Shown here one piece after another: positions 13,839-33,036 of a DNA stretch of 64,000 nucleotides. Each line of letters opens with the position of its first letter. Position 1 is the first letter of the stretch. The translations under genes and the position numbers were made by a program. The notes beneath the pieces are model-generated. The model had not been told where the DNA came from. It was given only the letters and a program-made list of their open reading frames with translations, and searched no databases. The DNA is from Escherichia coli (GTDB lineage: Bacteria > Pseudomonadota > Gammaproteobacteria > Enterobacterales > Enterobacteriaceae): the NCBI RefSeq assembly GCF_041248615.1, contig NZ_CP158426.1, one strand, 5' to 3'.

Positions 13839-14425
13839 TAGCCGCCCCCCAGTAATGACGCCACGTTACCCGTGATGCTTTTCAGCAGTGAAGTATCTGG
13901 AGGCTTTGTGGTTTTGTTGCCGCTATTCTGTACCGCCGACGTGCTGGCCCCTTCCTTCATGTTGGTTTTATCCGCGACGGTAATCTGCTGTGTCCGGGAG
14001 ATAAGGACCTCCCTCAGGGTGAGGACGGCGGACAGGACGTTTTCGGTTGTCTTGTCCGTCGTCACTTCCAGCGCCCGGATCAACATGTTGCTGTACAGTC
14101 GTTTACCGGTTACCACATCGAAGGGGATACGGCTTTCCTGCAGATCCAGTAGCTCCTGATACGTCTGCTGAGGACTCAGGCCGAGCAGGCTGGTAGCCGT
14201 CAGATTACTGGCAAAATCCAGCAATGCGCCGCCACCGGCGAAACCAACCTCCATCACCACTTCTGACGGTTTTTTATAGGCATGATCAGCGACAGCGGCC
14301 CCAACCTCTACCGGATGCTCTGTTATTTCAAGCATATCTGTATGCTTCTCTGAAATAACAACACTGGGAACAATCATTCCTATTTTTCTGCTCTGCTGAT
14401 GAAAAAGTGTAGAGAGAATATCCAC
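13838..14425 (-). CDS. tail protein of unknown function
   Basis: 195-aa ORF immediately after the tape measure gene, coupled stop/start. Confidence 0.4.
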   Translation of the reverse strand: MDILSTLFHQQSRKIGMIVPSVVISEKHTDMLEITEHPVEVGAAVADHAYKKPSEVVMEVGFAGGGALLDFASNLTATSLLGLSPQQTYQELLDLQESRIPFDVVTGKRLYSNMLIRALEVTTDKTTENVLSAVLTLREVLISRTQQITVADKTNMKEGASTSAVQNSGNKTTKPPDTSLLKSITGNVASLLGGG

Positions 14426-16413
14426 TAACCCACCCTCACCTGATTACTTCGCATGACCTGAGCATTTGCAGACTGTTGCCGACGTGCAACCTCATTACCG
14501 ACAGCGTGCGGATCTCCGCCACCGTAAATGTGGTAGGTATTTTGCTGGTTAACCTCTGTCACTTTGCCACTAATTCCCGCCACGGCAGCCTTATTAATCA
14601 GCTCTCGAGAATAGATATTTCTTCCATTCTCATGCTGGATAATGCTGCTCATCAATGCTGACATGGTTTGCGGATCGCTCATATTCAGGGCAGCCCGGGG
14701 ATCCACTCCCAGTCGTTGCGATACAGCCCTGATATACGCAGTTGTGTTGTTATTATCAGACGCAGGTGCCCAGGTAGAGATAATTTTCTCCACACTGTTT
14801 ATTCCCCGTCCGGCGTACAGCATTAACTGACGAGCAAGAGCCCGTAATCCATCAAAGGCAGTTTCAAATCTGGCAAATCGCCCGCCCGGGCGTTCAAGAG
14901 AAGCCCCTGCCTGACCAGCAAAATTAAGGTTTCCCGGATTGTTATTCCGTTCTCCTCGTTTCGTAGCCTGTGCATGTTGTTCCGGCTCATCATCACCAAA
15001 CCAGCCGCGTACCGTCCGGCCCACACTGCGGGGATCAAATCCCCAGTGCTCTTTAATCCAGTCGGCAGTACTGTTAGCGCTGTCTGTAACCATCGGCATC
15101 GCTGACGGATTTTCGCTGCCCTGATTAAGTATCTGTTTGCCGATGCTGACGGCATCAGCCCAGCGGCCATCTTTGATAGCGTTGAGCAGGTCGGCGATCA
15201 TGTTCAGCATTTTGCTGAATTCGCCCATCTGGTCGATGAAGTTGCTGAAATCCCACTTCAGGGACCATGATTTGGGGTCAATATTGAGCAGTTTCGCCAG
15301 CGCTTTCACCAGGTCGTTAACGGTCGTTTTAAGGTCACGAACCATCTTCAGCGCGGCATCAACCTCCGGTTTCCACTTGCCCCAGTCAATCAGGCTGTCG
15401 CCGCCTTCCTTCCAGGTCTGATAGTCCTCCCACAGGAGGGCAATCCCCGCCGCCAGCGCGGTAATGAGGCCAATCGGCGACATCCAGAACGTACTGTTCA
15501 GAATGCGCAGCGCAATCGTCAGTGCGCCAAACAGCGAGATCAACTCCCGCGTTTGCTTATCCAGCGATTGCCACCAGGTGATGAGGCCTGATGTCCCCTC
15601 AATCAGTCTGAAGAACAGCCGCCCGATAATATCCCCGAGCGCCAGAATGCCTTTTATGGCTTTCGTCAGGGTCTGCTCGATACGCGGGAAGTTGTCCAGG
15701 ATATGGCGGCGCAGTGTGTCCAGCGAACCCGCAAGCCCACCCGCAAGATTAGAGCCGATTTTGTCACGGGCCATGCCTGCCATCGCGCCAAACTCACGCA
15801 GGGAGGTCATAAATTTGTTGGAGCTTCTGGCCGCCTCGTCAGCATTGAAGCCGATAGCTTTCGCCATTGCGCTGTACTGCCCGGAGAAGCCACCCACACC
15901 GCGACGCATAGCCAACAGGGTATTTTCGTCAATGCCCAGCATCTGCGCATACTGGTTAGCACGGTAATACGGCATGTCGCTGAGCTTCTGGCCTACCCCT
16001 GTAAAAATAGCGGCCATGTCACGCATGTTACCGCTGGCATCCCGTGTCTGTACCCCCAGACGATTCAGAAATCCCTCCGCCCCGGGATTATTACGAATAA
16101 ACCGGGAGAGGTTTTCCAGAGAAGATCGCGCAGCGTCCACGCTGCCGCCAACCTGCGAAACCGCATAGCCAATAGACTGAATTCCCTGGACTGTCGCGCC
16201 GGTGCGCTGTGACGCCCAGTAAAGATTATCCAGGCCGGAGGCGATCTTAGCCGTGAAGGCCACCACGGACAGCGCCGCTCCTTCGACGGCCAGCCCCATT
16301 TTGATGACATTTGCAGTTGTACCGGCGAGGACAGAACCGAATTTTTTCGCTCCTGCATCATCCACACTGAAGCCAAGCGAGACAAGGAAATCTTTAATAG
16401 TCTCGGCGTTCAT
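14425..16413 (-). CDS. tail tape measure protein
   Basis: Long Ala/Gly/Leu-rich protein following the chaperone gene; start MNAETIKDF with RBS GGAGAGAGG. Confidence 0.7.
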   Translation of the reverse strand: MNAETIKDFLVSLGFSVDDAGAKKFGSVLAGTTANVIKMGLAVEGAALSVVAFTAKIASGLDNLYWASQRTGATVQGIQSIGYAVSQVGGSVDAARSSLENLSRFIRNNPGAEGFLNRLGVQTRDASGNMRDMAAIFTGVGQKLSDMPYYRANQYAQMLGIDENTLLAMRRGVGGFSGQYSAMAKAIGFNADEAARSSNKFMTSLREFGAMAGMARDKIGSNLAGGLAGSLDTLRRHILDNFPRIEQTLTKAIKGILALGDIIGRLFFRLIEGTSGLITWWQSLDKQTRELISLFGALTIALRILNSTFWMSPIGLITALAAGIALLWEDYQTWKEGGDSLIDWGKWKPEVDAALKMVRDLKTTVNDLVKALAKLLNIDPKSWSLKWDFSNFIDQMGEFSKMLNMIADLLNAIKDGRWADAVSIGKQILNQGSENPSAMPMVTDSANSTADWIKEHWGFDPRSVGRTVRGWFGDDEPEQHAQATKRGERNNNPGNLNFAGQAGASLERPGGRFARFETAFDGLRALARQLMLYAGRGINSVEKIISTWAPASDNNNTTAYIRAVSQRLGVDPRAALNMSDPQTMSALMSSIIQHENGRNIYSRELINKAAVAGISGKVTEVNQQNTYHIYGGGDPHAVGNEVARRQQSANAQVMRSNQVRVG

Positions 16414-17043
16414 TATCCTCTCTCCATTTCTCAATGCGCCGCTGGTTATCCGCTTTTACCGCCAGATGGTCATTCAAGAGAGCAATGTCGTACAAATCGA
16501 CAGAGCCATCTTTAAGTGCTGTATAAGGAATTAACCCGGCGTCAACCGGATTGAGAAGGTAGGACAGCCCGTCCGGCAGGCTGTTAAACGTCAGCCCTGT
16601 TGCAGGCTCTGCGTCGTGCTGGTAAGGGGTGTAGGCAAAAAATTTCCCAGCGAATCGGCGACCACCCGCGCCACCAGCTGCAGCATGACCAGCAGGTCAA
16701 TATCATCAAACATCAGTTCGCCCTGGGTAAATACCGGCACCCATCCGTCCATATGACGCCGCGATACCACCGCAAGACAGGGATGAATAATCGCATCGGT
16801 GTCATCTTCGGTCAGGGAAGACAGTTCCTCAGCGATACGCGGGAGCATGGTTTCAAACACCGGTTTTAACTGCTCGAATTTCACGGTGTCGATTTTGCCG
16901 TCAGCAGGCAAACGGGAGCGAATGCTCCCGAAATCTGACATCATTCCCGCCAGTACCGGCAGAAGTTTGCGGGTCACTTTCAGCTGGTCAAAAACGCTGA
17001 GTTTTGCCACGCGATATTTCACGCCTTTGATTTCGAATTCCAT
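16394..17043 (-). CDS. tail assembly chaperone, predicted -1 frameshift fusion product (long form)
   Basis: From the slippery site (about 16639..16645) the -1 frame stays open for ~80 codons to a TAA at 16394..16396 overlapping the tape measure start. Confidence 0.5.
16591..17043 (-). CDS. tail assembly chaperone (short form)
   Basis: 150 aa, between tube and tape measure genes; contains slippery heptamer A_AAT_TTT near its 3' end. Confidence 0.55.
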   Translation of the reverse strand: MEFEIKGVKYRVAKLSVFDQLKVTRKLLPVLAGMMSDFGSIRSRLPADGKIDTVKFEQLKPVFETMLPRIAEELSSLTEDDTDAIIHPCLAVVSRRHMDGWVPVFTQGELMFDDIDLLVMLQLVARVVADSLGNFLPTPLTSTTQSLQQG

Positions 17044-17046
17044 GTA

Positions 17047-17487
17047 TTAAAACTCCCCGAGAACCTGGTCAATCTTGCCGCAGTCAAACACCCACGGCAT
17101 CGTATTACCGGTTTTAGCGTTGGCATTATCCGGTTGTTTCTGGAACGCAACACTGCGTGCCGTGATGATGTCGCCGCTGACCTTGTTGCGGATCACGATA
17201 ACGTTATTCCCCCATGTGGCAGAAGACTGGCTCTGTGCGTTATACGCCAGCGACAATTTTTTATTTGTCGGTGATGTCTTCAGAAGGTTAACGGTAATCG
17301 TCCCGCTTTTATCTGCATGGAGGCTGTGCATCACTTCACCATCAGCACCGATGGTCATGGTGTTTTTAGGACCGCCCATCGCAACCACAATCCCCTCTTC
17401 AGAACTTGCAGAACCGTACCCGAGGTCAATCGAACCGGTCGGGCCGGTCAGCGTCGCAGTGACATCCATAAAAGAATAGGTAGACAT
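17047..17487 (-). CDS. tail tube protein
   Basis: 146 aa directly downstream of the sheath gene. Confidence 0.6.
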   Translation of the reverse strand: MSTYSFMDVTATLTGPTGSIDLGYGSASSEEGIVVAMGGPKNTMTIGADGEVMHSLHADKSGTITVNLLKTSPTNKKLSLAYNAQSQSSATWGNNVIVIRNKVSGDIITARSVAFQKQPDNANAKTGNTMPWVFDCGKIDQVLGEF

Positions 17488-17497
17488 TCACTTCCCC

Positions 17498-18643
17498 TTA
17501 GCGAACAACGTTAATCTGTACGTCAGCGTAATGAACCGCGCCTGCAAGTTTTATTGCAGCCTGAATCACCGGAGCCTTACGGGCTTCACGTTCTGATTGT
17601 GCCTGTTCATCCAGCGGCTGGGCGTATACGTAATAACCTTTGGGCAGTGTGTCACCTGATGACAACTGACCAAGGTCGCCCCCGTTCCATACGCCCGGAG
17701 CAATCAGTCCATTCTGAACGGCCTGATCCAGTGATTTTTCAACATTTGATAACAGTCGGGTAATACCAGCTTCAGTCTGGGGAACTTTCGTGGTGCTGGT
17801 ATAAAGCAGGTTATAGAGGTTGGTCTGCACATAATTCTGTAACCAGTCCAGGCCGTGGCGTTCATCAAAGAAATCGCCGTTAGCCATCACTCCCTGCTGG
17901 AGGATAGCCGTATCATTCTGGTAGTACACGAATACATTGCAGTTTTTTGCATCAAGTGCCGATGCCTGGCTGACTGTCAGTGTTTCATACCCGACACCCG
18001 GCTCCTGCTTAAACTTGAGCGTAATCGCGGTATTACTGCCATTGAAATTAACCGTGAATACCCGGCCAAATGCAGATAACGCAGCGTATTTATTACCCGA
18101 TGAATACTGAATAAAACTGCGTGAATATCCGGCGGTTTTCAGTTTTGATGCCAAATCATCGCTGGATGCAGTCTGCAGGCATTTATCATCGCTTGTCGTA
18201 ATCGCCAGAATACGGCTTACAGAAGAGGATTCGATCGCCGCAGCCACTTTCAGCCAGTCTGCATCCGGAATATCTTCATCGTCTGCAATCCCCAGCCCAT
18301 ACCATGAAGTATAATCGAGCATGGCATTCACAGCCTGCTCCAGCGTCTCAGGCGTGGCCTGTTCGCTGTCACCCTTCGTTTTCACCCAACGACCAACAAA
18401 AACCTCCTGAGGTTTCGGTGATTGTGAGAAAAACACCTGCGCAGCCTTATATTCTGGTGATTCCACGCCAAAATCTTTTCCAATATCTTCCGCGGCAGAA
18501 TAACGGCGAATGCGCTCACTTACCGGAATGATTGTGGACGGGCCGAGAATGAGTAATGCACCAAAATTTCGCCCTGATGCTGCACGCGGCGACATGATCA
18601 CATCAACATTAACAACGTTTGATACAGGCAAGCCCTGTGCCAT
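17498..18643 (-). CDS. contractile tail sheath protein
   Basis: 381 aa, position and size typical of short sheath proteins; precedes the tube gene. Confidence 0.65.
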
Positions 18644-31755: not shown

Positions 31756-31896
31756 CTATTCGGATCGCTCATCAGTTCTGCGCAGCAATGCGCAGCACAC
31801 GTGAACTTCAAGCACATGCAGCTTCTGACCGCAGTTAGCGCACGTTAAAGCTCGCTCGACGCTTCCTTGTTCGTAACTTCGATTTGGGTCAATCAC
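31756..31896 (-). CDS. ninF: NinF-like small Cys-rich protein with altered C-terminus (apparent frameshift relative to lambda NinF)
   Basis: GTG start overlapping ninE stop; encodes ...[23 protein letters not shown] then diverges; the lambda-like C-terminus [20 protein letters not shown] is in another frame. Confidence 0.45.
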
Positions 31897-32075
31897 CTTG
31901 TATTCCTCGCACGTTCTCTAAGCCACCGGATATCCCACAGGTGAGCCGTGTAGTTGAAGGTTTTTACGTCAGATTCTTTCGGGATTGGCTTGCGTTTATT
32001 TCTGGAGCGTTTCGTTGGAAGGTATTTGCAGTTTTCGCAGATGATGTCGGTGAAACTTCGTCGCTGTCGCCTCAT
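31893..32075 (-). CDS. ninE: NinE
   Basis: 60 aa [60 protein letters not shown]. Confidence 0.75.
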
Positions 32076-32599
32076 GCCGCCCTCCTGACGCCCTGCCCGA
32101 TCGCCATCAATGCCGCTTTGGATACGGTAGTAAACATCCGTCGAGGACTGATGAACGGTCGCCAAATCAGCAGCATGGAGCCTTTGCTGTTTCCCTTCTT
32201 CTCCAGCCCTGTCGATGGTTCGATAAAATTAATCCGTCCATCAGTGATAATGCGAACTTCGTCGACACTCTCCAGAGCCTTGCTGAACCATCCGACTGAC
32301 ATATCCTCTGGCACAAGCATAACTACCGTCTGTCGCTGTTGTATGCACTGCTCAGCGGCTTTTTCCACCCACGGCCTGATATTGCTGTACGGCGGGTTAT
32401 TCCAGATTGCACCGTGGCTTACCCACTCAGAATTTAGCGCGTCGTCAGCCTCAGTTAGCCAGTGAGCGCACAGAGCATTTTTGTCGCTCGCTGCCGAATC
32501 CAGCCAGAATCCAAACTCAATATCCAGTGCATCAAAAAGCCAAAGCGGCGTTTGCCAGCAGTCCTTGTCGTGTGCTGGCGTATTTGATTTGATAGTCAT
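32072..32599 (-). CDS. phage DNA N6-adenine methyltransferase (Dam-like), in the position of lambda ninC/ninD
   Basis: 175 aa from ATG at 32599; catalytic motif NPPY ([11 protein letters not shown]). Confidence 0.75.
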
Positions 32600-33036
32600 G
32601 CAGCCCGATCTCCCCATCGCGCTTTCCATTCGAGAGCTAGTCGCGCTTCGTCTGACCACTTAACGCCACGCTCTGTACCGAATGCCTGTATAAGCTCTAA
32701 TAGCTCCGCAAATTCGCTTACACGCATCCTGCTGGTTGACTGGCCTATTACCACAAAGCCATTCCCGGCAAGGTTAGGAACAACGTCCTGCTGCTTTAAT
32801 GCTGCTGTAAAAACGCACTTCCAGCTTTCTGCATCCAGCCAGCGACCATGCCATTCAACCTGACGAGAGACGTCACCAAGGCAAGCCCAAAGCTTTCGAT
32901 TCTGGTCTAAGCTGCGGTTGCGTTCCTGAATAGTTACTACGATTGGTTTGGTTGGGTCTGGAAGGATTTGCTGTACTGCGTGAATAGCGTTCTGCTGATG
33001 TGCTGGAGATCGAATTTCAAAGGTTAGTTTTTTCAT
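32596..33036 (-). CDS. ninB: NinB (Orf) recombination mediator
   Basis: 146 aa MKKLTFEIRSPAHQQNAIHAVQQILPDPTKPIVVTIQERNRSLDQNRKLWA... Confidence 0.85.
   Translation of the reverse strand: MKKLTFEIRSPAHQQNAIHAVQQILPDPTKPIVVTIQERNRSLDQNRKLWACLGDVSRQVEWHGRWLDAESWKCVFTAALKQQDVVPNLAGNGFVVIGQSTSRMRVSEFAELLELIQAFGTERGVKWSDEARLALEWKARWGDRAA

What the first reader, a model, noticed from the sequence alone, without database searches (positions are those of the whole stretch)
16394..17043. Canonical -1 programmed frameshift site in the tail assembly chaperone gene
Near the 3' end of the chaperone ORF the reverse strand reads G GGA AAT TTT TTG, containing the X_XXY_YYZ heptamer A_AAT_TTT. I translated the -1 frame from this point and it stays open for about 80 codons to a TAA at 16394..16396, just past the tape measure start codon. 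This mirrors the G/GT arrangement and is direct sequence evidence for two chaperone isoforms.
Basis: seen in the sequence. Interest (0 to 1): 0.5.

Follow-up and report, generated by a model that had tools for sequence, protein, structure and literature searches.

The report
Tail chaperone −1 frameshift site confirmed
An E. coli prophage tail-assembly chaperone gene carries a conserved slippery sequence that very probably makes ribosomes slip back one base and produce a second, longer chaperone, which is the ordinary arrangement known from phages lambda and P2.

Summary
On the minus strand the 150-codon chaperone ORF (17043..16591) reads CTG GGA AAT TTT TTG at 16648..16636. The −1 frame is open from 16696 to a TAA at 16396..16394, which lies 20 nt inside the tape-measure gene (ATG at 16413).

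- The −1 extension encodes Pfam DUF6889 (E=1.5e-20).
- In 178 of 180 related loci this domain lies in the −1 frame of the chaperone.
- 53 of 57 representatives (<90% identical) have an in-phase X_XXY_YYZ heptamer at the homologous spot, often with a different sequence. The background rate is 0.0015 per codon.
- Amino-acid conservation switches from frame 0 to frame −1 at the site.
- GGA-AAT-TTT are the only 3 of 49 conserved codons with no synonymous variation.
- No relative has a start codon with a Shine-Dalgarno motif for the extension. The window has no start codon at all.

A refinement: the run holds three overlapping heptamers (G_GGA_AAT, A_AAT_TTT, T_TTT_TTG). I found no conserved downstream RNA structure and no upstream Shine-Dalgarno-like stimulator.

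GenBank records of phages Mulock and Magia already annotate this frameshift. RefSeq calls the extension a separate "DUF6889 family protein". This is an ordinary new member of a known kind. No experiment has been done.

The parts
16591..17043 (-). Tail assembly chaperone ORF, frame 0. It encodes 150 aa and is the short isoform.
16636..16648 (-). Slippery run G_GGA_AAT_TTT_TTG. It holds three overlapping in-phase heptamers: G_GGA_AAT (16648..16642), A_AAT_TTT (16645..16639) and T_TTT_TTG (16642..16636).
   Evidence: Searches show the sequence and phase. The run is identical in relatives down to about 50% chaperone identity. GGA-AAT-TTT are the only 3 of 49 conserved codons without synonymous variation in 20 representatives.
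16594..16696 (-). Overlap window, where frame 0 and frame −1 are both open. The shift must happen here.
   Evidence: the overlap is 103 nt. In four relatives the −1 frame opens only 0 to 3 nt before the slippery run (L006, L008, L099 and L094).
16394..16639 (-). −1 frame extension: 81 codons plus the TAA at 16396..16394. It forms the C-terminal part of the predicted 216-aa long isoform (junction ...SLGNF|FAYTPYQ...).
   Evidence: One search gives the translation. Pfam DUF6889; phrog_4364, E=2.8e-23. AlphaFold2 model of the fusion, mean pLDDT 90.8, with about 95 over residues 161-200.
16412..16528 (-). DUF6889 (PF21829) core within the −1 extension.
   Evidence: E=1.5e-20, 73.1 bits against a cut-off of 23.9. 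The match covers residues 45-83 of the translation of 16660..16394.
14425..16413 (-). Tape measure protein gene (662 aa from the ATG at 16413), with a C-terminal transglycosylase-like region. The extension's stop lies 20 nt inside it.
   Evidence: One search gives the ORF; phrog_2276 'tail length tape measure protein', E=1.5e-282. RefSeq uses the same start.
17047..17487 (-). Tail tube gene, immediately upstream of the chaperone.
   Evidence: Pfam KPP10_Orf10 (named Phage_Tube_PhiTE), E=8.8e-61.
17498..18643 (-). Tail sheath gene.
   Evidence: DUF3383, E=7.1e-101; phrog_205 'tail sheath', E=1.6e-135.

Best explanation
This is the tail assembly chaperone gene pair of a SEN34/Mulock-like temperate myophage integrated in E. 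coli, expressed by programmed −1 ribosomal frameshifting.

Proposed mechanism:
1. Most ribosomes translate frame 0 to the TGA at 16593..16591 and make the 150-aa chaperone.
2. A minority slip back one nucleotide on G_GGA_AAT_TTT_TTG (16648..16636) and continue in the −1 frame to the TAA at 16396..16394.
3. The result is a 216-aa protein with the same chaperone domain plus a C-terminal DUF6889 domain.

The most likely slip is tandem re-pairing of tRNA-Asn (AAU to AAA) and tRNA-Phe (UUU to UUU) on A_AAU_UUU. The flanking heptamers G_GGA_AAU and U_UUU_UUG offer further chances to slip. Slips on the first two heptamers give the junction ...LGNFFAY.... A slip on the third gives ...LGNFLAY....

No RNA stimulator seems to be involved, as in lambda and P2.

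By analogy with lambda gpG/gpGT, both isoforms would coat the tape measure protein. The extension would recruit the tube protein to start tail polymerisation, and neither isoform would end up in the virion.

Shown here: the sequence features, their conservation, coding in the −1 frame, and the lack of an independent start. Inferred: that slippage occurs, its efficiency, which heptamer is used, and the role of the extension.
For: - Anatomy. In-phase heptamers lie 16-18 codons before the stop. The −1 frame is open through the overlap and for 65 codons beyond the stop.
- Coding in the −1 frame. DUF6889, E=1.5e-20; phrog_4364.
- Gene order. Sheath, tube, chaperone, tape measure.
- Family survey. 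The extension lies in the −1 frame in 178 of 180 loci. Of 57 representatives below 90% identity, 53 have a canonical in-phase heptamer in the overlap. The heptamers differ between clades: GGGAAAT, AAATTTT, CCCTTTT, TTTTTTT, TTTTTTC, GGGTTTT. The background rate is 7 per 4,817 codons.
- Frame switch. Mean pairwise BLOSUM62 upstream is 2.49 in frame 0 and 0.74 in frame −1. Downstream it is 0.35 in frame 0 and 1.38 in frame −1.
- Synonymous freeze. GGA, AAT and TTT are invariant in 20 diverged sequences. The other 46 conserved codons each show 2-6 codon variants.
- No independent start. None of 57 representatives has a start codon with a Shine-Dalgarno-like motif. 30 of 57, including the window, have no ATG, GTG or TTG before the conserved core.
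- Fold. The fusion models confidently (pLDDT 90.8, pTM 0.79). Its N-terminal domain matches known tail chaperones.
- Prior annotation. Curators annotated 'tape measure chaperone frameshift product' in Mulock, which has the identical 13-nt run, and in Magia.
- Literature. H_HH.U_UU.Y heptamers, which include A_AAU_UUU, are among the most efficient in E. coli (PMC4066793). P2 shifts on TTTTTTG without a hairpin (PMC3091744). The lambda G/GT model is reviewed in PMC5009743.
Against: - There are no protein-level data for this element or any relative. The Mulock and SEN34 papers do not mention the frameshift.
- No conserved downstream structure was found (consensus energy −1.47 kcal/mol, no covariation). 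The window's own fold is not unusual (z=−1.0). No upstream anti-Shine-Dalgarno pairing stands out. Efficiency therefore cannot be argued from stimulators.
- 4 of 57 representatives lack a canonical heptamer. They keep only a U_UUU tetramer (GAT TTT A or TCT TTT A).
- G_GGA_AAU and U_UUU_UUG are not in the top efficiency class for E. coli in PMC4066793.
- The function of DUF6889 is inferred purely by analogy. It shows no detectable sequence similarity to the lambda T or P2 E' families (one search returned only DUF6889).
Confidence: 0.9

Rival explanations
1. The DUF6889 ORF is a separate small gene translated from its own start, as RefSeq/PGAP and several phage records annotate it. No frameshift is involved.
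For: RefSeq annotates a 57-aa 'DUF6889 family protein' downstream of the chaperone. GZ7, ST11-VIM1phi8.3, yong1, ZHS and PSTCR3 also list small separate ORFs. Edwardsiella phage ZHS has no canonical heptamer, and its extension contains ATG ATG near the start of the domain.
Against: - In the window, the −1 frame has no ATG, GTG or TTG between the slip site and the conserved core. By my coordinate conversion, the RefSeq start maps to window 16567, which reads CTG.
- None of 57 representatives has a start codon with a Shine-Dalgarno-like motif, and 30 of 57 have no start codon at all.
- −1 frame conservation begins at the slippery run, upstream of every annotated start.
- The annotated starts differ from record to record.
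- This model explains neither the frozen synonymous sites nor the near-universal in-phase heptamer.
Confidence: 0.05
2. The long isoform is made by transcriptional slippage. RNA polymerase would add one extra U on the T6 run, giving an mRNA in which chaperone and extension are in frame.
For: The window has a run of six T. One public assembly (Logan SRR23924998) has T7 at this spot and an in-frame 213-aa chaperone-DUF6889 ORF. This shows that a one-base insertion here gives exactly the predicted fusion.
Against: - Many relatives have the same two-frame arrangement with only T4 (CCCTTTT, AAATTTTA). The Bordetella-type clade has GGGAAAT followed by A, with no homopolymer longer than three.
- From my own knowledge, productive slippage usually needs longer runs, about 7-9 or more.
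- The phase of the heptamers relative to frame 0 is conserved. That matters for tRNA re-pairing but not for polymerase slippage.
- The single T7 contig may be a homopolymer sequencing or assembly error.
Confidence: 0.03
3. The heptamers and the open −1 frame are coincidental or a decayed remnant. Only the 150-aa chaperone is made.
For: Off-frame open stretches past a stop codon are common in the window: 29 of 71 ORFs have 50 or more codons. Single in-phase heptamers occur by chance about once per 350 codons.
Against: The −1 frame has a Pfam hit at E=1.5e-20. The arrangement is kept in 178 of 180 loci down to 26% identity. Conservation switches frame at the site. The slippery codons show no synonymous variation. 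The extension is confidently predicted to fold.
Confidence: 0.01

Closest known systems
Phage lambda gpG/gpGT tail assembly chaperones, the conserved −1 frameshift of long-tailed dsDNA phages (Levin 1993; Xu, Hendrix and Duda 2004, 2013, 2014, as reviewed in PMC5009743)
   Same: - Two overlapping ORFs sit between the major tail/tube gene and the tape-measure gene.
- The second ORF is in the −1 frame and has no start of its own.
[quoted passage not shown]
- No RNA stimulator is evident.
- The extension ends at the start of the tape-measure gene.
   Different: - There is no detectable sequence similarity to lambda G or T. The families here are Phage_TAC_15 and DUF6889.
- The tail is contractile (sheath plus tube).
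- The run holds three overlapping heptamers, and its first ends in U rather than G (G_GGA_AAU against lambda's G_GGA_AAG).
- Efficiency, isoform ratio and binding partners are untested.
Phage P2 E / E+E' (a myophage of E. coli)
   Same: A contractile-tail phage of the same host. The −1 shift occurs at TTTTTTG, which is the third heptamer of the window's run. No downstream hairpin is present (PMC3091744).
   Different: The protein families are unrelated by sequence. P2 E is 91 aa and E+E' is 142 aa, against 150 and 216 aa here. The window has two additional heptamers upstream of TTTTTTG.
Klebsiella phage Mulock CPT_Mulock_014/015 and Burkholderia phage Magia CPT_Magia_015/016, annotated 'tape measure chaperone' and 'frameshift product'
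   Same: These are true homologues: the chaperones are 59% and 26% identical to the window's. They have the same gene order and the same DUF6889-type extension in the −1 frame. Mulock has the identical 13-nt run.
   Different: Magia uses a single C_CCT_TTT heptamer followed, 6 nt later, by an 8-bp hairpin (GGGCTGCT/AGCAGCCC), which the window lacks. These annotations are curators' predictions, not experiments. The Mulock genome paper does not discuss the frameshift.
E. coli dnaX and IS3/IS911-type −1 frameshift signals
   Same: An X_XXY_YYZ heptamer with tandem tRNA slippage on the bacterial ribosome.
   Different: Those signals depend on an upstream Shine-Dalgarno-like element and/or a downstream hairpin or pseudoknot. 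Neither is conserved here.

Membership tests
Lambda G/GT-type tail assembly chaperone frameshift (Xu, Hendrix and Duda 2004) | Two overlapping ORFs located between the major tail/tube gene and the tape-measure gene | tested here: met
   The order is sheath 18643..17498, tube 17487..17047, chaperone 17043..16591, extension to 16394, tape measure from 16413.
Lambda G/GT-type tail assembly chaperone frameshift (Xu, Hendrix and Duda 2004) | The second ORF is in the −1 frame relative to the first and lacks its own translation start | tested here: met
   The frame offset is −1. It is −1 in 178 of 180 related loci. The window has no ATG, GTG or TTG before the conserved core, and none of 57 representatives has a start with a Shine-Dalgarno-like motif.
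Lambda G/GT-type tail assembly chaperone frameshift (Xu, Hendrix and Duda 2004) | A slippery X_XXY_YYZ heptamer, in phase, inside the overlap | tested here: met
   Three overlapping heptamers lie at 16648..16636. 53 of 57 family representatives have at least one.
Lambda G/GT-type tail assembly chaperone frameshift (Xu, Hendrix and Duda 2004) | The arrangement is conserved across relatives although the sequences diverge | tested here: met
   It is kept down to 26% chaperone identity with different heptamers. Conservation switches frame at the site. The slippery codons are frozen at synonymous positions.
Lambda G/GT-type tail assembly chaperone frameshift (Xu, Hendrix and Duda 2004) | Two proteins with a common N-terminus are made in a fixed ratio; both are needed for tail assembly and both are absent from virions | not testable with these tools
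   This needs a western blot or mass spectrometry, plus genetics. No published data were found for this phage group.
Pfam Phage_TAC_15 (PF21822) | Score above the curated gathering threshold | tested here: met
   109.5 bits against a cut-off of 22, E=2.1e-31, covering residues 6-138.
Pfam DUF6889 (PF21829) | Score above the curated gathering threshold | tested here: met
   73.1 bits against a cut-off of 23.9, E=1.5e-20, in the −1 frame translation. The match covers profile positions 2-40 of 40.
gpG-like tail chaperone fold | Structural similarity of the N-terminal domain to solved tail assembly chaperones | tested here: met
Stimulator-dependent −1 frameshift signal (dnaX / IS3 type) | A conserved downstream hairpin or pseudoknot 5-9 nt after the heptamer | tested here: not met
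   RNAalifold on 19 window-clade sequences gave −1.47 kcal/mol, 5 trivial pairs and no covariation. The window's own fold has z=−1.0.
Stimulator-dependent −1 frameshift signal (dnaX / IS3 type) | An upstream Shine-Dalgarno-like element 6-17 nt before the heptamer | tested here: not met
   Anti-Shine-Dalgarno duplex energy for the window is −2.2 kcal/mol, and 53% of background positions are at least as strong. The family median is −3.3 against a background of −2.2, a weak shift at most.
Transcriptional slippage site | A long homopolymeric run shared by the family | tested here: not met
   The window has T6. Many relatives have only T4, or no run longer than three, with the same two-frame layout.

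The most novel reading that the evidence does not exclude
In this chaperone family the slippery sequence and the RNA stimulator may trade off against each other.
- The enterobacterial clade, including the window, has a frozen 13-nt run of three overlapping heptamers and no stimulator.
- Clades with a single heptamer (C_CCT_TTT or A_AAT_TTT) carry a hairpin 6 nt downstream.

If so, the triple site would be a distinct way to set the isoform ratio, by summing several weak slips, and it would yield two different junction peptides. A corollary is that DUF6889 is never a free-standing protein but is the 'T-domain' of this chaperone family. Its separate annotation in hundreds of enterobacterial genomes would then be wrong.
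Probability: 0.3. Interest if true: 0.35.

Novelty: new member of a known kind. Interest (0 to 1): 0.2.

Why it matters
The practical value lies mostly in annotation.
- The region matched 336 of 5,426 complete E. coli genomes. The RefSeq hits listed there annotate the extension as a separate 'DUF6889 family protein', or in one genome as 'NTP pyrophosphohydrolase'.
- Many phage records do the same, so the 216-aa fusion is missing from protein databases.
- Recognising DUF6889 as the frameshift-encoded C-terminal domain of Phage_TAC_15 chaperones gives a 'domain of unknown function' a concrete context.
- It also extends the G/GT rule to the DUF3383-sheath / KPP10-tube type of contractile tail.

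It changes nothing in our understanding of frameshifting or tail assembly.

Tried and rejected
- **Downstream stimulatory structure.** The single-sequence fold was unremarkable (z=−1.0). Per-sequence folds of 20 relatives shared no hairpin. RNAalifold found nothing. I reject a conserved stimulator in the window clade.
- **Upstream Shine-Dalgarno-like stimulator.** No enrichment.
- **Hairpin in the single-heptamer clade.** RNAalifold on an ungapped alignment found nothing. A named 8-bp helix is formed in 78% of cells, against 20-45% when the partner is slid. Only one pair shows compensatory change. This is suggestive only, and it lies outside the window.
- **Database look-ups that returned nothing.** The PDB sequence profile search had no hits. 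NCBIfam had no hits. Foldseek against the PDB had no significant hit.
- **Exact look-up of fusion proteins.** The predicted window fusion and three possible Mulock fusion variants are not in the protein collection. I therefore could not tell which junction the Mulock annotators chose.
- **Literature.** No paper mentions DUF6889. The Mulock and SEN34 papers say nothing about the chaperone or a frameshift.
- **Uninformative searches.** The first related-loci scan returned only relatives at least 93% identical. A second scan with a diverse alignment was needed.
- **A naive chance test.** '−1 frame open for at least 50 codons past the stop' is confounded by downstream genes, so I did not use it as evidence.
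Full report
**What is in the sequence**

On the minus strand the window carries a contractile-tail module:
- sheath, 18643..17498 (Pfam DUF3383, E=7e-101; phrog_205 'tail sheath')
- tube, 17487..17047 (KPP10_Orf10, E=9e-61)
- a 150-codon ORF, 17043..16591 (Pfam Phage_TAC_15, E=2.1e-31; phrog_1688 'tail assembly chaperone', E=2e-65)
- the tape-measure gene, starting at the ATG at 16413 (phrog_2276, E=1.5e-282)

Sixteen to eighteen codons before the chaperone's TGA, frame 0 reads CTG GGA AAT TTT TTG, at 16648..16636 from the first G of GGG. The −1 frame is open from 16696 to the TAA at 16396..16394. That is 81 codons after a slip on A_AAT_TTT, and the stop lies 20 nt inside the tape-measure gene.

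One addition: the run contains three overlapping in-phase X_XXY_YYZ heptamers, not one. They are G_GGA_AAT, A_AAT_TTT and T_TTT_TTG.

**Is it more than chance?**

In-phase heptamers occur at 0.0029 per codon in 71 gene-like ORFs of the window. They occur at 0.0015 per codon in the upstream parts of homologous chaperone genes. About 0.1 would be expected in the 34-codon overlap.

An open −1 frame past a stop codon is not rare in itself, because the next gene often lies there (29 of 71 ORFs). I did not rely on that. The decisive point is that the −1 translation matches Pfam DUF6889 with 73.1 bits against a cut-off of 23.9, E=1.5e-20. It also matches phrog_4364 at E=2.8e-23. The frame therefore encodes a conserved protein domain. 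The tape-measure gene is in frame 0 relative to the chaperone, so the extension is not simply the next gene.

**Where the window comes from**

The region is 100% identical to chromosomes of several E. coli strains and matches 336 of 5,426 complete E. coli genomes. It is 98% identical to four induced E. coli myophages (vB_EcoM-606R2 and others). More distant relatives are Yersinia phage YP3, Salmonella phage SEN34 and Klebsiella phage Mulock. It is a prophage of the SEN34/Mulock type.

**Comparative test**

I collected three sets of related loci:
- 20 annotated phage relatives, 10 found by blastn and 10 by tblastn
- 80 close viral contigs
- 80 diverse viral contigs, found with an alignment of 13 chaperones

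Profiles of the chaperone and of the extension were then run on all stop-to-stop ORFs. Of the 180 loci that have both parts, the extension lies in the −1 frame of the chaperone in 178. The two exceptions are a contig with T7 instead of T6, which gives an in-frame fusion, and a contig with an indel.

After removing redundancy at 90% chaperone identity, 57 representatives remain, reaching down to 26% identity to the window. Of these, 53 have a canonical in-phase heptamer inside the overlap, at the conserved 'NLG-x-F' motif. The heptamer sequence differs between clades:

| Clade or example | Heptamer(s) |
|---|---|
| Enterobacterial clade, including the window | GGGAAAT + AAATTTT + TTTTTTG |
| Bordetella-type clade | GGGAAAT alone |
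| Burkholderia-type phages such as Magia and BgManors32 | CCCTTTT |
| Acinetobacter MD-2021a | AAATTTT |
| Providencia PSTCR3 and others | TTTTTTT |
| Ralstonia | GGGTTTT + TTTTTTC |

What is conserved is slipperiness in the right phase rather than a particular sequence. This is the signature of a recoding site. The four representatives without a heptamer still keep a U_UUU tetramer (GAT TTT A, CCT TTT A or TCT TTT A).

**Three further tests on the same data**

- **Frame switch.** In the 16 codons up to the site, frame 0 is the conserved frame (mean pairwise BLOSUM62 2.49 against 0.74). In the 12 codons after it, frame −1 is the conserved frame (1.38 against 0.35). No sequence has a −1 stop in those 12 codons. 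In four relatives the −1 frame opens only 0-3 nt before the run, which pins the shift to this spot.
- **Synonymous sites.** Among 20 window-clade representatives, 49 chaperone codons have a conserved amino acid. Forty-six of them show 2-6 synonymous codons, with a mean majority-codon share of 0.62. The only three with no variation at all are GGA, AAT and TTT of the run.
- **Independent initiation.** None of the 57 representatives has an ATG, GTG or TTG with a Shine-Dalgarno-like motif in the −1 frame before the conserved core. Thirty, including the window, have no such codon at all. By my coordinate conversion, RefSeq's 'DUF6889 family protein' starts at a CTG in the window, and the starts chosen in other records differ from one another.

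**Stimulators**

I found none.
- The window's own fold is unremarkable (z=−1.0).
- Twenty relatives share no hairpin.
- RNAalifold on 19 sequences gives −1.47 kcal/mol and no covariation.
- Upstream pairing to the anti-Shine-Dalgarno sequence is at background level for the window.

This fits the precedents. P2 shifts on TTTTTTG without a hairpin (PMC3091744), and secondary structure downstream of these phage sites is described there as rare.

The single-heptamer clade is different. It often has an 8-bp hairpin (GGGCTGCT/AGCAGCCC) 6 nt after the heptamer. The helix is formed in 78% of cells against 20-45% for slid controls, with one compensatory pair. This hints at a trade-off between tandem heptamers and a stimulator, but the evidence is weak.

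**Which heptamer?**

A systematic E. coli study places H_HH.U_UU.Y heptamers, which include A_AAU_UUU, C_CCU_UUU and U_UUU_UUY, among the most efficient. It ranks the U_UU.Y tetramer second only to A_AA.G (PMC4066793). X_XXU_UUY is also the most widespread type in this family.

However:
- G_GGA_AAT is the only heptamer in one clade, so it must suffice there.
- T_TTT_TTG is the site used by P2.
- One natural variant keeps only the last two heptamers (L124) and another keeps only the last (L149).

All three heptamers may contribute. Slips on the first two give ...LGNFFAY..., and a slip on the third gives ...LGNFLAY....

**The proteins**

An AlphaFold2 model of the 216-aa fusion, built with 36 homologous conceptual fusions, is confident: mean pLDDT 90.8 and pTM 0.79. 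The linker (residues 141-160) is at about 77-81 and the extension (residues 161-200) at about 95.

The extension is a small helical domain. It has no detectable sequence relationship to lambda T or P2 E', since one search returned only DUF6889. Its role of recruiting the tube protein while the common domain coats the tape measure is taken from the lambda model (PMC5009743). That role is inference.

**Rival explanations**

- A separately translated DUF6889 gene is contradicted.
- Transcriptional slippage on T6 is unlikely, because relatives with T4 or no run keep the same layout and the phase of the heptamers is conserved.
- Chance is excluded by the comparative data.

**Novelty**

The phenomenon is textbook (lambda G/GT, P2 E/E+E'). 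For this very family, GenBank curators already annotated 'tape measure chaperone frameshift product' in Mulock, which has the identical 13-nt run, and in Magia. The associated Mulock paper does not mention it.

The frameshift is not annotated in the E. coli genomes. RefSeq splits off a 'DUF6889 family protein', or in one genome an 'NTP pyrophosphohydrolase'. The predicted fusion is absent from the protein collection.

The finding is a correct, well-supported but ordinary new member of a known kind. Its value lies in annotation and in giving DUF6889 a context.

Noticed in passing
L101 1895-1910 (Logan SRR23924998 contig), homologous to window 16648..16636: One public assembly has T7 instead of T6 in the slippery run. 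This gives a single in-frame 213-aa chaperone-DUF6889 ORF (P0001) whose junction is exactly the predicted ...LGNFFAY.... It could be a real fusion-only variant or a homopolymer sequencing error.
   Followed up: partly
L091 1698-1740, L096 1578-1620 and other single-heptamer relatives (alignment A3): Relatives with a single C_CCT_TTT or A_AAT_TTT heptamer often carry an 8-bp hairpin (GGGCTGCT, 13 nt, AGCAGCCC) starting 6 nt after the heptamer. One pair shows G-C to A-U compensatory changes. The window clade, with its triple heptamer, lacks this hairpin. This may be a trade-off between slippery sequence and stimulator.
   Followed up: partly
RefSeq and GenBank annotations over window 16394..16567 (H24 and L002; L006): The −1 extension is annotated as a free-standing 'DUF6889 family protein'; by my coordinate conversion its start maps to a CTG codon in the window. 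In E. coli CS6L and several Klebsiella prophage records it is called 'NTP pyrophosphohydrolase', which looks like a misnomer propagated by similarity.
   Followed up: partly
L093 (Edwardsiella phage ZHS) 1579-1880; L100, L129, L174: Four family representatives lack a canonical heptamer and keep only a T_TTT tetramer (GAT TTT A, CCT TTT A or TCT TTT A). The ZHS extension also has ATG ATG near the start of the domain. These lineages may use single-tRNA slippage or may have moved to separate initiation.
   Followed up: no
L024 and L132 (IMG/VR contigs): In L024 the extension lies in the +1 frame, because of an indel between the chaperone and the extension. In L132 the −1 extension runs on for 241 codons into downstream sequence, and a further 4 contigs carry the same slippery-site sequence as L132 without it. 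Both may be assembly errors or defective prophages.
   Followed up: no
window 32072..32659 (−) and 31893..32165 (−): A 195-aa ORF with a GTG start has an in-phase G_GGA_AAC heptamer in a 51-codon overlap with a −1 frame that stays open 60 codons past its stop. That frame appears to be the next small ORF (31893..32165), so this is probably an ordinary gene overlap rather than recoding.
   Followed up: no
L001 2163-3760 (Mulock CPT_Mulock_016); L093 1878-2787 (ZHS_23): The tape-measure genes of two relatives carry wrong product names in GenBank: 'tape measure chaperone' in Mulock and 'portal protein' in ZHS.
   Followed up: no
window 14425..16413 (−): The C-terminal third of the tape measure protein matches endolysin and transglycosylase phrogs (phrog_873 over residues 474-650; phrog_7182). 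RefSeq calls the protein 'lytic transglycosylase'. The ruler protein therefore seems to carry a cell-wall-degrading domain.
   Followed up: no
window 16394..16405 (−): The window's extension ends ...NERRDY*, three codons longer than in most close relatives, which end ...NER* (65 against 62 codons past the chaperone stop). It therefore overlaps the tape-measure start a little further.
   Followed up: no
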